From a virus, in the UHGV virus genome UHGV-0007927: DNA of 36,970 nt; one strand, 5' to 3'. Of the stretch, positions 15,861 to 16,950 are shown one piece after another. A model generated the notes under the pieces. That model was not told the origin of the DNA. It saw nothing but the letters and a program-made list of their open reading frames with translations, and did no database searches. The stretch's first letter is position 1. Each line of letters opens with the position of its first letter. The position numbers were made by a program, and so were the translations under genes.

Positions 15861-16040
15861 ATGAAAAAAGAAGACCGTGGTTTTATCTCTGTTACTAACT
15901 CAATTTCAGAAGTTAAAAAACTCTTTGTGGAAAATGAAATCCCGCAAGAAGATGAGGTTCTTGAACTGGTGGTCGTCAAAAGCGAAACTACCAATGACTC
16001 ATGTGCATTAGTGCTTAAATTGCGATCAGTTCAAAAATAA
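15861..16040 (+). CDS. small hypothetical protein (59 aa), below the ORF-track cutoff
   Basis: ATG at 15861 with GCGAGG about 10 nt upstream; [59 protein letters not shown]; the overlapping minus-strand ORF 15725..15994 looks like an antisense artefact. Confidence 0.3.
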
Positions 16041-16076
16041 GACGAACCGATTGATGCATTGAAAATTTTGCGTGTG

Positions 16077-16097
16077 AATTGATGTGTCTCATCAATT
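16077..16097. promoter_or_regulatory. perfect inverted repeat AATTGATG-tgtct-CATCAATT upstream of the protease gene (candidate operator)
   Basis: 8-bp arms with a 5-bp spacer, 55 bp upstream of the protease start, flanked by promoter-like TTGATG and TATGAT hexamers. Confidence 0.3.
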
Positions 16098-16152
16098 ATT
16101 CTGGTGGATGAACTCATTATGATTTTTCACTCACCGGTATCGGAGCAAATCG

Positions 16153-16893
16153 ATGCATCAAACTTTAGCCAACGCAACGTTTCAGGTCATTGCAGGTGAT
16201 TCTCGTGGTAGTGGGTTCAGCTTTATGCGAGAAGATCTGGTCGTAACCAATTTTCATGTTGTCGCCACCTGTTGTGACTTACAGAGCATGCGTCAAATCA
16301 ATAATGTCACCCTTCAAACTGAAGCTAATGAGCATATTGGTGCTCAAATATTGCATGTTGATGGTAGTAACGACTTTGCTATCATGCAATTGCAATCCCC
16401 CCTTCCTGGCGGAAGAACAGTCCTTCAACCATCTGCTGGGTTTGCTCCATCCAGGGGCAGAAAAGTAATTTTTGCAGGATACCCGCATGGGATACCTCTG
16501 TTACTAACAAGTGAGGCAATTATTTCAGCACCGATGGAGCATGGCCGATTTACGCTTGATGGAATGGTTAATGGGGGGAACTCAGGAGGACCTATTATTG
16601 ATCGAGATTCGGGAGAGTTAGTAGGTATCGTCACCCAGCGTAGATATATAATGGGCGATCAGGCTGATGCTTTCAGCCAAGAAATAGCCCAACTGCGACA
16701 ATATCTTTCTTCAGCAAGTCTGCATGGAAGTGTTGAGATCATGGGTGTTAATTTCGGGCAAATGGCGGACATGTTTGGTAGATCGCTACAGATTGTTTCG
16801 GACATGATGTCGCTGAATGCTAACTCCGGAATTGGTATTGGATTTTCAATCCAGCCCATCGTTGATGTGATCACATCTTTCCCTACGAAATAA
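16153..16893 (+). CDS. trypsin-like (chymotrypsin-fold, S1-type) serine protease, cytoplasmic; accessory gene
   Basis: 246 aa; catalytic-triad motifs in the right order: His in VTNFHVV, Asp in SNDFAIMQL, Ser in GNSGGP; no signal peptide; about 80-aa C-terminal extension; GGAG RBS; hairpin terminator downstream. Confidence 0.75.
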   Translation: MHQTLANATFQVIAGDSRGSGFSFMREDLVVTNFHVVATCCDLQSMRQINNVTLQTEANEHIGAQILHVDGSNDFAIMQLQSPLPGGRTVLQPSAGFAPSRGRKVIFAGYPHGIPLLLTSEAIISAPMEHGRFTLDGMVNGGNSGGPIIDRDSGELVGIVTQRRYIMGDQADAFSQEIAQLRQYLSSASLHGSVEIMGVNFGQMADMFGRSLQIVSDMMSLNANSGIGIGFSIQPIVDVITSFPTK

Positions 16894-16927
16894 ACATTCG
16901 TTGTATAAGATTTTATACATGATATGG

Positions 16928-16950
16928 CCACGCATATGTGTGGCTTTTTA
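16928..16950 (+). terminator. intrinsic terminator after the protease gene
   Basis: Hairpin GCCACGCA-ta-TGTGTGGC followed by TTTTT. Confidence 0.5.

What the first reader, a model, noticed from the sequence alone, without database searches (positions are those of the whole stretch)
15861..16950. Cytoplasmic trypsin-like serine protease with operator-like palindrome, between the lysis cassette and terminase
A 246-aa protein carries the complete His/Asp/Ser chymotrypsin-fold triad (TNFHVV, DFAIM, GNSGGP) but no signal peptide, plus an about 80-aa C-terminal extension. It sits in a lower-GC island with its own hairpin terminator, preceded by a perfect 8/5/8 inverted repeat and a possible 59-aa partner ORF. 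Intracellular trypsin-like proteases are unusual phage cargo. One in a hotspot could be an abortive-infection effector, an anti-defence factor, or a regulated toxin kept inactive by the small upstream protein or by a repressor binding the palindrome.
Basis: partly seen in the sequence, partly recalled or inferred. Interest (0 to 1): 0.6.

Follow-up and report, generated by a model that had tools for sequence, protein, structure and literature searches.

The report
Prophage cargo: gated cytoplasmic serine protease
A small mobile two-gene unit (a 59-residue protein plus a cytoplasmic HtrA-like serine protease, with its own terminator) sits in a cargo hotspot of an E. coli prophage; it is real, conserved and uncharacterised, and is probably a weapon in phage-bacterium or phage-phage conflict, but its function has not been shown.

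Summary
The sequence features are real. Window 15648-16955 is a 1.3-kb low-GC cargo module that replaces gene 66 of phage Sf6. It lies between the spanin genes and the DUF2560/terminase genes of a P22-like prophage.

The module contains four parts:
- a genuine 59-aa gene (dN/dS 0.1-0.25);
- a 112-nt spacer under strong constraint (78% identity, against 47% at four-fold sites) that carries the 8/5/8 palindrome;
- a 246-aa serine protease of the S1C/HtrA type with an intact His35/Asp74/Ser144 triad, no signal peptide and no PDZ domain;
- an intrinsic terminator.

The pair occurs in 29 of 5426 E. coli genomes and in Klebsiella and Citrobacter prophages with many different backbones. It is always in this slot and always 112 nt apart. 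The protease family is small but scattered across phyla, in mobile islands, and often lacks the small gene. That weakens a strict toxin-antitoxin reading.

No known defence model or paper covers the module. The best guess is a gated protease effector for conflict or defence; this is an inference, not a demonstrated function. Interest is moderate.

The parts
15648..16955 (+). Whole cargo module (moron-like insert), 1308 bp, 42.9% GC
   Evidence: Relative to Sf6 and phage Huey, homology stops at 15647 and resumes at 16956. Sf6 gene 66 occupies the same slot.
15735..15805 (+). Leader: fossil 3' end of a spanin-like gene carried along with the cassette
   Evidence: In L022, L025, L028 and others the homologous stretch is the intact end of an ORF (...TKKDVLAHNKSVQANCQTNE*). 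The window keeps only the remnant. Homology to the unrelated L007 backbone starts at 15740.
15861..16040 (+). 59-aa acidic partner protein gene (net charge about -2; predicted short helix plus beta-hairpin)
   Evidence: dN/dS is 0.09-0.27 at dS up to 1.75. There are 61-73 clusters at 90% identity, nearly all 59 aa; every cluster that carries a source name is from Enterobacteriaceae. In every place examined it lies 112 nt upstream of the protease. AF2 pLDDT is 86.8, but the other four models score 63-68. No fold match was found.
16041..16152 (+). 112-nt spacer under purifying selection (regulatory element; DNA or RNA level unresolved)
   Evidence: Identity is 78%, against 47% at four-fold degenerate sites of the flanking ORFs for the same cassette pairs. 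The RNA fold is -37.4 kcal/mol, z=-2.9.
16077..16097 (.). Perfect 8/5/8 palindrome AATTGATG-N5-CATCAATT
   Evidence: Found and unique in the window. It is retained in 18 distinct cassettes with 96.5% pair compatibility. Only one-sided changes are seen, with no compensatory pairs.
16115..16120 (+). Invariant CATTAT, a candidate -10 hexamer of a weak promoter proximal to the protease (inferred)
   Evidence: It is invariant in 18 cassettes. A -10-like hexamer lies 33-40 nt before the protease ATG in five independent upstream types. The standard scan calls no canonical sigma-70 promoter here.
16051..16062 (+). 5' arm of a long-range complement to the protease start region (partner arm 16150-16161)
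   Evidence: The 12-nt arms are 92% complementary (I3). In the MFE fold they form the closing stem that sequesters the protease AUG. 91.9% of cells are pair-compatible, but covariation is not significant.
16142..16145 (+). Shine-Dalgarno GGAG of the protease gene
   Evidence: Read directly from the sequence. It is conserved in 16 of 18 cassettes (GGAT in L030, GGGG in L034).
16153..16893 (+). 246-aa cytoplasmic S1C/HtrA-type serine protease without PDZ (His35 16255-16257, Asp74 16372-16374, Ser144 16582-16584)
   Evidence: Pfam Trypsin_2 at 3.6e-20. AF2 pLDDT 84.7, pTM 0.77. The best PDB folds are DegS-deltaPDZ, HtrA1 and HtrA3, E about 1e-11. PDB sequence hits are HtrA-family protease domains.
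16645..16824 (+). About 60-aa two-helix insertion (residues about 165-224) at the L2/220-loop position of the protease fold
   Evidence: The AF2 secondary structure shows H168-190 and H201-222 between E156-163 and E226-232. The Pfam domain match ends at residue 159. The NANSGIGIGF motif after the insertion is invariant across the family.
16926..16950 (+). Intrinsic terminator (8-bp GC-rich stem, loop of 4, T-run)
   Evidence: Found; -13.2 kcal/mol, z=-3.2. Terminators with different stem sequences occur 17-35 nt after the protease stop in most independent cassettes.

Best explanation
SHOWN. Window 15648-16955 is a self-contained, horizontally mobile cargo module of lambdoid prophages. It is inserted in the variable slot between the spanin genes and the DUF2560/terminase genes. 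In order, it encodes:
- a 59-aa acidic protein;
- a 112-nt spacer under strong constraint that contains a palindrome;
- a catalytically intact, cytoplasmic serine protease of the HtrA/DegS type, without a PDZ domain, carrying a two-helix insertion in the L2/220 activation loop;
- an intrinsic terminator.

INFERRED. The module is a conflict (anti-phage or inter-phage competition) system carried for the benefit of the lysogen and prophage.
- The protease is the effector. It cleaves a phage or host protein once it is switched on.
- The helical insertion sits in the loop that forms the S1 pocket and activation domain of chymotrypsin-fold enzymes. It acts as the gate or sensor.
- The 59-aa protein, specific to the enterobacterial clade, is a regulator (inhibitor, adaptor or decoy substrate) of the protease. 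It is not an obligatory antitoxin.
- Protease synthesis is controlled through the spacer, in one of two ways. Either a regulator binds the palindrome, which would overlap the -35 region (centre about -41) of a weak promoter with the invariant CATTAT -10. Or an RNA fold sequesters the protease AUG and SD, so that protease translation is coupled to translation of the small ORF, which ends 10 nt upstream of the stem.
For: Module boundaries and hotspot:
- defines the boundaries. Sf6 and Huey carry other cargo in the same slot.
- The pair occurs in at least 10 different lysis/terminase backbones of E. coli, Klebsiella and Citrobacter prophages. It is always in the same slot and orientation, with 112-nt spacing.
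- It is present in 29 of 5426 E. coli genomes and in 33 IMG/VR contigs.
- GC is low.

Terminator: it is maintained with varying stem sequences in independent cassettes.

Protease:
- Family and domain matches.
- Conserved triad.
- Fold and insertion.
- No hydrophobic segment.
- SEC-C tails in some relatives point to a cytoplasmic location.

Small gene: real and strictly linked to the protease.

Spacer:
- Sequence constraint.
- RNA fold with z=-2.9.
- CATTAT -10-like element in unrelated upstream contexts.

Conflict-type context of distant relatives:
- Integrase or recombinase islands, one next to ssrA/SmpB.
- IS-flanked copies.
- One copy next to a PifA-like KAP NTPase, E=7e-69.

Closest defence-database domain matches: the retron type XI fused protease (2.5e-14), PDC-M35A and LmuA.

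Precedents for cytoplasmic trypsin-like proteases as gated immune effectors: the trypsin-MBL/HamMAB module (bioRxiv 10.1101/2025.09.03.673762; PMC13069673), retron XI (PMC7736814) and ietAS (PMC13069673).
Against: - No functional data exist. No paper or curated model covers the pair.
- PADLOC hits are at domain level only.
- No conserved canonical sigma-70 promoter lies upstream of the small ORF. In several phages the small ORF starts 30-60 nt after a spanin stop codon. The pair may therefore be transcribed only with the late/lysis operon, which suits a phage-benefit function better than lysogen defence.
- Covariation supports neither the RNA fold nor the palindrome hairpin beyond what sequence conservation alone would give.
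- The link to known defence genes rests on one locus (L099). Other distant members lie among ordinary genes.
- The model of the small protein is uncertain: four of five models have pLDDT 63-68.
Confidence: 0.4

Rival explanations
1. Late-operon phage-benefit genes. The pair is co-transcribed with holin, endolysin and spanin from the Q-antiterminated late promoter and acts during the phage's own lytic cycle. Possible roles are cleaving host proteins (counter-defence, host takeover), tuning lysis, or excluding superinfecting phages late in infection.
For: - The pair is always directly downstream of the spanin genes and in the same orientation, in every enterobacterial backbone.
- The small ORF sometimes starts 30-60 nt after the upstream stop codon.
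- No conserved sigma-70 promoter lies upstream of the small ORF.
- A Cronobacter homolog occupies the same position without the small gene.
Against: - The distribution is sporadic: 29 of 5426 E. coli genomes, and absent from 50,697 GenBank phage records.
- Low GC and clean replacement of other cargo.
- A maintained terminator right after the protease implies non-antiterminated transcription reaches this point.
- Family members sit in non-phage islands and even on an archaeal plasmid.
- Late expression is too late for classical anti-defence.
Confidence: 0.25
2. Toxin-antitoxin-like addiction or abortive-infection pair. The protease is a toxin held inactive by the 59-aa antitoxin. The palindrome is the autoregulatory operator, and loss or degradation of the small protein releases the protease.
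For: - Two-gene layout with the small gene first, rigid 112-nt spacing and a conserved palindrome.
- A possible start-codon-sequestering fold would couple toxin translation to antitoxin translation.
- Precedent: ietAS, a serine-protease toxin with a protein antitoxin that also defends against phage (PMC13069673).
Against: - The protease occurs without the small gene in the same phage slot (L035, L043, L044/45, L015) and across the wider family.
- The small protein has no DNA-binding or known inhibitor fold.
- The palindrome lies between the genes, not upstream of the operon.
- There are no TA or defence model hits.
Confidence: 0.15
3. Ordinary housekeeping HtrA/DegP-type quality-control protease that happens to lie in a prophage.
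For: The best sequence and fold matches are HtrA, DegS and DegP protease domains.
Against: - No signal peptide and no PDZ domain. Scores lie far below every NCBIfam equivalog cut-off.
- The gene is mobile, rare and specific to the hotspot.
- It carries a family-specific helical insertion.
Confidence: 0.03
4. Decaying or non-functional remnant, with a chance palindrome and a spurious small ORF.
For: - One E. coli copy is broken by IS3 elements.
- A Pseudomonas copy is truncated next to a 429-aa ORF that I read as a transposase (not confirmed by a family search).
- A single 8-nt inverted repeat is not rare.
Against: - Purifying selection acts on the small ORF.
- Catalytic residues are invariant across 35 homologs.
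- The spacer is more conserved than synonymous sites.
- ORF lengths are intact in dozens of independent prophages.
Confidence: 0.02

Closest known systems
HtrA/DegS/DegP family (MEROPS S1C; Pfam Trypsin_2 PF13365)
   Same: Chymotrypsin double-barrel fold, His-Asp-Ser triad in the same order, the GNSGGP motif, and the 'GIGF' final strand. The best PDB matches are DegS-deltaPDZ and the HtrA1 and HtrA3 protease domains.
   Different: There is no signal peptide or membrane anchor and no PDZ domain. A roughly 60-aa two-helix hairpin is inserted in loop L2. The gene is mobile prophage cargo rather than a housekeeping gene. Scores are far below all curated HtrA equivalog cut-offs.
Retron type XI (reverse transcriptase fused to a C-terminal trypsin-like protease; PADLOC RT-Protease_XI)
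   Same: This is the best defence-database match to the protease domain (E=2.5e-14, residues 10-184). It is a cytoplasmic trypsin-like domain used as a presumed effector (PMC7736814).
   Different: Neither the window nor related loci contain a reverse transcriptase or ncRNA. The match ends where the helical insertion begins. The protease here is stand-alone and paired with a 59-aa protein.
Trypsin-MBL / HamMAB and Avs1-type protease-nuclease modules
   Same: The concept is shared: a cytoplasmic trypsin-like protease kept inactive until infection, which then executes immunity by cleavage (bioRxiv 10.1101/2025.09.03.673762; PMC13069673; PMC9226505).
   Different: No MBL-fold nuclease, helicase or STAND ATPase is adjacent. 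The neighbours are spanin, DUF2560 and terminase genes. The partner is a 59-aa protein of unknown fold.
ietAS (serine-protease toxin plus ATPase antitoxin; plasmid stabilisation and anti-phage)
   Same: A two-gene unit in which a serine protease is the harmful component and the partner protein restrains it (PMC13069673).
   Different: IetS is subtilisin-like, not chymotrypsin-fold (from my own knowledge, not tested here). The partner there is a large AAA ATPase. Here the partner is 59 aa and is dispensable in many relatives.
Lambdoid 'morons' (for example bor or lom of lambda; cargo in the Rz-to-terminase slot such as Rha or Sf6 gp66)
   Same: The module is inserted between conserved late genes, has deviant GC and its own terminator, and is exchanged between backbones.
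   Different: The defining own promoter could not be demonstrated. Only a weak candidate lies upstream of the protease, and none upstream of the small ORF.

Membership tests
Peptidase S1 / Trypsin_2 (chymotrypsin fold) | Significant match to the family profile above the curated cut-off | tested here: met
   PF13365 scores 73.6 bits against a cut-off of 27.6. PF00089 scores 33.3 bits against 20.6.
Peptidase S1 / Trypsin_2 (chymotrypsin fold) | His-Asp-Ser catalytic triad in that order, conserved in homologs | tested here: met
   The triad is His35, Asp74 and Ser144. Asp and Ser are invariant and His is at least 90% conserved in 35 sequences.
Peptidase S1 / Trypsin_2 (chymotrypsin fold) | Two-beta-barrel fold | tested here: met
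   The AF2 model has pLDDT 84.7. Foldseek probability is 1.00 to DegS and HtrA protease domains.
HtrA/DegP/DegS subfamily (S1C) in the strict sense | One or two C-terminal PDZ domains | tested here: not met
   There is no PDZ hit in Pfam. The protein ends 5 residues after the C-terminal helix of the protease domain.
HtrA/DegP/DegS subfamily (S1C) in the strict sense | Export signal or membrane anchor (periplasmic or extracytoplasmic location) | tested here: not met
   There is no hydrophobic segment; maximum KD19 is 1.24. The N-terminus is a conserved part of the fold.
HtrA/DegP/DegS subfamily (S1C) in the strict sense | Score above curated equivalog or subfamily cut-offs | tested here: not met
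   TIGR02037 scores 46.5 bits against 416, and DegS 23 against 423.
Moron (autonomous cargo unit of lambdoid phages) | Present or absent between conserved genes of related phages, with deviant composition | tested here: met
   The module replaces Sf6 gene 66 at 15648-16955. GC is 42.9% against about 50.7%.
Moron (autonomous cargo unit of lambdoid phages) | Own transcription terminator | tested here: met
Moron (autonomous cargo unit of lambdoid phages) | Own promoter active in the lysogen | tested here: inconclusive
   No canonical sigma-70 site was found. There is only a weak candidate with an invariant CATTAT -10 upstream of the protease. This needs TSS mapping.
Type II toxin-antitoxin system | The toxin is always accompanied by its cognate antitoxin | tested here: not met
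   The protease occurs without the small gene in L015, L035, L043, L044/45 and in distant members.
Type II toxin-antitoxin system | Antitoxin with a recognisable DNA-binding domain and an operator upstream of the operon | tested here: not met
   There are no Pfam, NCBIfam or fold hits for the 59-aa protein. The palindrome lies between the two genes.
Type II toxin-antitoxin system | Toxicity of the toxin alone, neutralised by the antitoxin | not testable with these tools
   This requires expression experiments.
Retron type XI | Reverse transcriptase domain fused to, or adjacent to, the protease | tested here: not met
   The 246-aa protein has only the protease domain. No RT was found among the neighbours.
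Trypsin-MBL / HamMAB / Avs1 modules | Adjacent MBL-fold nuclease and a sensor NTPase or helicase | tested here: not met
   The neighbours are spanin, a 50-aa ORF, DUF2560 and terminase.
Any system in PADLOC-DB v2.0.0 | Full-length match of all components to a system's models | tested here: not met
   There are only partial, domain-level hits for the protease and none for the small protein. The database dates from 2023, and newer catalogues were not available.

The most novel reading that the evidence does not exclude
A minimal, stand-alone protease immune system of temperate phages. The helical hairpin in the activation loop directly senses a protein of an invading phage and switches on the protease, which aborts the infection. 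The 59-aa protein, translated from the late operon and coupled to protease translation through the start-codon-sequestering spacer fold, serves as the prophage's own self-immunity factor, so that induction of the carrier phage is not aborted.
Probability: 0.12. Interest if true: 0.75.

Novelty: new variant of a known kind. Interest (0 to 1): 0.45.

Why it matters
Gated cytoplasmic proteases are emerging as executioners in bacterial immunity. Examples are the trypsin-MBL/HamMAB module, gasdermin-activating proteases, retron XI and ietAS.

So far they come attached to large sensor proteins or nuclease partners. This module would be a stripped-down version: about 0.9 kb of coding sequence, a protease with a built-in helical insert in its activation loop, plus one tiny partner. 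It rides in a well-defined lambdoid cargo hotspot and is present in clinical E. coli, Klebsiella and Citrobacter lineages.

If it is defensive, it adds a compact, easily testable system. It also offers a clean model for how an insertion in the 220/L2 loop regulates a chymotrypsin-fold enzyme.

If instead it helps the phage, it would be a rare case of a late-expressed phage protease unrelated to head maturation.

In either case, the constrained 112-nt spacer is a tractable regulatory element.

Tried and rejected
1. Known defence systems. PADLOC gave only domain-level hits: retron XI protease, PDC-M35A and LmuA.

2. Curated families. NCBIfam and Pfam give nothing specific for either protein. PHROGs gives only weak matches to protease-containing families.

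3. Rfam. No RNA family matches the region.

4. Canonical sigma-70 promoter, on either strand, in the leader or spacer. None is conserved. An antisense candidate (TTCATA-17-AATAAT) is not conserved at its -10.

5. Palindrome as an RNA hairpin or a DNA operator. Covariation cannot decide. Changes are one-sided only: by my reading of the per-pair counts, about 6 wobble-compatible events against about 3 disruptive ones. Folded alone, the hairpin has z=-1.65.

6. Full spacer fold. 89% of pairs are compatible, but the 4 compensatory pairs against 1.9 expected are not significant. The leader hairpin is likewise not significant.

7. Palindrome as part of the prophage immunity operators. There is no second copy in the window. 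By my own comparison with the textbook consensus sequences, its half-site spacing (TTGAT-N7-ATCAA) does not fit FNR or CRP. This was not a tool test.

8. Small upstream peptide in the spacer. The 26-codon frame starting at 16119 is broken in other cassettes (sequences).

10. Upstream neighbours of distant protease homologs as hidden homologs of the 59-aa protein. None resembles it except L029.

11. Literature. The Tai systems, HepS, the E. coli functional selection, the P2/P4 hotspot study, DefensePredictor and the domain-centric screens do not describe this pair. Brenes & Laub 2025 (Cell Host Microbe) could not be read.

12. Genome-wide context survey. The scan was swamped by generic HtrA hits, so the contexts of distant members rest on about 12 loci.

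13. Complex prediction of the small protein with the protease.
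Full report
**Setting**

The window is a P22-like (Lederbergvirus-type) prophage of E. coli.
- The flanks of the finding match Sf6, HK620 and many Salmonella and E. coli podophages at 95-97% identity. The centre of the finding is absent from all 50,697 GenBank phage records.
- The gene order around it is: holin; endolysin (14362-14838); Rz/Rz1 spanins (14835-15302); a 50-aa ORF (15290-15442, equivalent to Sf6 gene 65); the finding; DUF2560 (17057-17299); small terminase gp3 (17329-17823); large terminase (17801-19297).

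**Checking the observation**

- ORF 16153-16893 encodes 246 aa and matches Pfam Trypsin_2 (E=3.6e-20) and Trypsin.
- His35, Asp74 and Ser144 lie in the motifs TNFHVV, DFAIM and GNSGGP. In an alignment of 35 homologs down to 40% identity, Asp and Ser are invariant and His is nearly so.
- No hydrophobic stretch could serve as a signal peptide or anchor. The N-terminus MHQxLANATF is conserved across the family and modelled as part of the first barrel.
- The module has 42.9% GC, against about 50.6% in the lysis and terminase genes.
- A terminator hairpin with a T-run lies at 16926-16950 (-13.2 kcal/mol, z=-3.2).
- The 8/5/8 palindrome lies at 16077-16097.
- The 59-aa ORF 15861-16040 is a real gene. 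dN/dS is 0.09-0.27 at dS up to 1.75. There are 61-73 clusters in the 5.8-billion-protein collection, nearly all exactly 59 aa, and every cluster that carries a source name is from Enterobacteriaceae.

**One correction**

The "about 80-aa C-terminal extension" is not an appended domain.
- The family-wide invariant motif NANSGIGIGF near the C-terminus corresponds to the HtrA "GIGFAIP" strand.
- The AlphaFold model (pLDDT 84.7, pTM 0.77) shows strand 156-163, then helices 168-190 and 201-222, then strand 226-232 returning to the barrel, and finally the usual C-terminal helix 234-241.
- The extra residues are therefore a two-helix hairpin inserted at the L2 (chymotrypsin 220-loop) position.
- From general knowledge of chymotrypsin-fold enzymes, this loop lines the S1 pocket and belongs to the activation domain. 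That is why I read the insertion as a gate or sensor. This is an inference.
- The nearest solved folds are DegS-deltaPDZ, HtrA1 and HtrA3 (E about 1e-11). PDB sequence hits are all HtrA-family protease domains.
- There is no PDZ domain, and scores lie far below every curated HtrA, DegP or DegS cut-off.

**What the unit is**

- Compared with Sf6 and phage Huey, homology stops at 15647 and resumes at 16956. Sf6 gene 66 occupies that slot. The 1308-bp stretch 15648-16955 is therefore exchangeable cargo.
- The same pair is found in 29 of 5426 complete E. coli genomes, always on the chromosome and in prophages. The backbones have quite different lysis cassettes and terminases: P22-like, lambda/nohD-like, PBSX-type and others.
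- It also occurs in Klebsiella and Citrobacter prophages and in 33 IMG/VR contigs.
- In every case the small gene comes first and the protease follows after 112 nt. The unit sits directly after the spanin genes and before the packaging genes.
- One Klebsiella genome carries it in two prophages. One E. coli copy is broken by IS3 elements.
- The cassettes are mosaic. The small protein comes in two types, and protease C-terminal halves recombine independently.
- The leader of the window's copy contains a fossil of the 3' end of a spanin-like gene that is intact in other carriers. This shows how the unit moves, by recombination between lysis regions.

**The spacer**

- For cassette pairs whose four-fold degenerate sites are only 47% identical, the 112-nt spacer is 78% identical. 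That is more conserved than the small ORF's own DNA. It is a functional non-coding element.
- The left arm of the palindrome is nearly invariant and the right arm drifts. 96.5% of cells remain pair-compatible, but all changes are one-sided and none is compensatory. Covariation therefore cannot separate an RNA hairpin from a DNA operator.
- The palindrome has no second copy in the prophage.
- No canonical sigma-70 promoter is conserved upstream of the small ORF or in the spacer.
- However, an invariant CATTAT lies 38 nt before the protease ATG. A -10-like hexamer lies 33-40 nt upstream of the protease in five unrelated upstream contexts. With that -10, the right arm of the palindrome would be the -35 region and the palindrome centre would lie near -41.
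- Alternatively, the spacer RNA as a whole folds unusually well (-37.4 kcal/mol, z=-2.9). A closing stem pairs 16051-16062 with 16150-16161, and 16150-16161 includes the protease start codon. Because the small ORF stops 10 nt before that stem, terminating ribosomes could open it, which would give translational coupling.
- Across 18 cassettes, 89% of the pairs are compatible, but the compensatory changes (4 against 1.9 expected) are not significant.
- Both models remain open and are easy to test.

**The terminator**

A terminator is found 17-35 nt after the protease stop in most independent cassettes, with different stem sequences. This fits the classic moron design. It argues that transcription which is not antiterminated reaches this point.

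**The wider family**

- Only 59 representatives reach E<=1e-30 among 1.84 billion proteins clustered at 50% identity. A shell of relatives of about 255-270 aa also spans the insertion.
- True full-length relatives occur in many lineages:
  - Pantoea, Cronobacter, Lysobacter, Salinisphaera and Photobacterium;
  - Bacteroidota, Firmicutes and Chloroflexi;
  - a haloarchaeal plasmid.
- Their contexts are mostly mobile or variable:
  - recombinase or integrase islands, one beside ssrA/SmpB;
  - an adjacent called gene with a transposase-type HTH domain, and an IS6 transposase next to the archaeal copy;
  - a slot next to a PifA-like KAP NTPase, E=7e-69;
  - but also one ordinary chromosomal neighbourhood.
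- These relatives lack the 59-aa gene, and their upstream neighbours are unrelated to it.
- Even in the enterobacterial phage slot, some proteases stand alone (L035, L043; Cronobacter L015, L044 and L045) or follow an unrelated 74-aa ORF (L024).
- The small protein is therefore a clade-specific accessory, not an obligatory antitoxin.
- Its predicted structure (short helix plus beta-hairpin; best model pLDDT 86.8, the other four 63-68) has no structural relative.

**Comparison with what is known**

- PADLOC gives only domain-level matches: the retron type XI fused protease at 2.5e-14, PDC-M35A at 1e-5 and LmuA at 1.6e-3. The small protein has none.
- Retron XI is a reverse transcriptase with a C-terminal trypsin-like protease (PMC7736814). 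No reverse transcriptase is present here.
- Trypsin-MBL/HamMAB and Avs1-type modules use a gated trypsin-like protease to activate a nuclease (bioRxiv 10.1101/2025.09.03.673762; PMC13069673; PMC9226505). No MBL nuclease or sensor NTPase is adjacent here.
- ietAS pairs a serine-protease toxin with an ATPase antitoxin (PMC13069673).
- None of the papers I could search describes this pair.
- The most relevant screen, Brenes & Laub 2025, is not held. Prior description cannot be fully excluded.

**Verdict**

- The anatomy is solid. This is a mobile, two-gene, terminator-capped cargo module encoding a cytoplasmic HtrA-like protease with an activation-loop insertion, a dedicated 59-aa partner and a constrained regulatory spacer.
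- The function is inferred. I favour a gated protease effector in phage-bacterium or phage-phage conflict (confidence about 0.4).
- The rivals are a late-operon phage-benefit role (0.25) and a TA-like pair (0.15). Housekeeping and decay readings are effectively excluded.
- I file it as a new variant of a known kind (protease-based conflict modules). Interest is moderate: it is not astonishing, but it is compact, widespread in clinically relevant Enterobacteriaceae and directly testable.

Noticed in passing
window 15851-15869: A perfect 9/1/9 palindrome, TTTTTTCAT-C-ATGAAAAAA, spans the start codon of the 59-aa ORF (I6). Part of it is forced by the conserved MKK codons. The upstream T-run varies between cassettes.
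   Followed up: partly
window 15802-15828: A hairpin in the leader, just after the fossil stop codon (CCGGGC...GCGGCCTG), is present in different sequence versions in other cassettes. 89% of cells are pair-compatible and there are 2 compensatory pairs, which is not significant. It has no T-run, so it is not a terminator.
   Followed up: yes
window 15735-15805: This stretch is a fossil of the 3' end of a spanin-like (lipoprotein-type) gene that is intact in other carriers of the cassette (L022, L025, L028 and others). It records the cassette's previous host lysis region.
   Followed up: partly
L002 1277-2272 (E. coli EC11, NZ_CP060938.1): A second, unrelated protease cargo gene ('SDH family Clp fold serine proteinase') lies on the opposite strand between Q and the holin in a prophage that also carries the protease pair.
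   Followed up: no
L099 5021-7153 (Limibacterium fermenti): A PifA-like KAP-family NTPase (PADLOC PifA E=7e-69) lies 271 nt downstream of a 40%-identical protease family member.
   Followed up: partly
L178 and L181 (Klebsiella GCA_001875125.1): The same genome carries the small-gene/protease pair in two different prophages. In both it is preceded by a split Rha gene and an 83-aa ORF.
   Followed up: no
L006 (E. coli PSS-11, NZ_AP027694.1) 2498-6408: The cassette is disrupted by two IS3-family copies, leaving the small gene intact and the protease truncated at its N-terminus.
   Followed up: no
P0116, P0120 (Photobacterium and relatives); L192 6001-6819: Some family members carry a C-terminal SEC-C zinc-binding motif (CPCxSGKKFKxCCG). 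This fits a cytoplasmic location. The Photobacterium copy is followed by a DUF2971 gene.
   Followed up: no
protease residues about 38-75 (window 16264-16377): The segment after the catalytic His is hypervariable between cassettes. In the enterobacterial clade it carries a 6-residue indel relative to other lineages. The cassettes are recombinational mosaics of small-protein type, this segment and the C-terminal half.
   Followed up: partly
L196 4986-5732 (Salinigranum rubrum plasmid NZ_CP026312.1): A haloarchaeal plasmid encodes a 36.5%-identical full-length relative, next to an IS6 transposase and a TATA-box-binding protein gene.
   Followed up: no
window 34001-36970: The right end of the window falls to 34-41% GC, much lower than the rest of the prophage. 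It may be another cargo or host-junction region.
   Followed up: no
L024 4689-4913: In one viral contig the protease (77% identical) is preceded by an unrelated 74-aa ORF (MSIRAKFHCHIIQKSEDG...) with no Pfam or PADLOC hit, in place of the 59-aa gene.
   Followed up: partly
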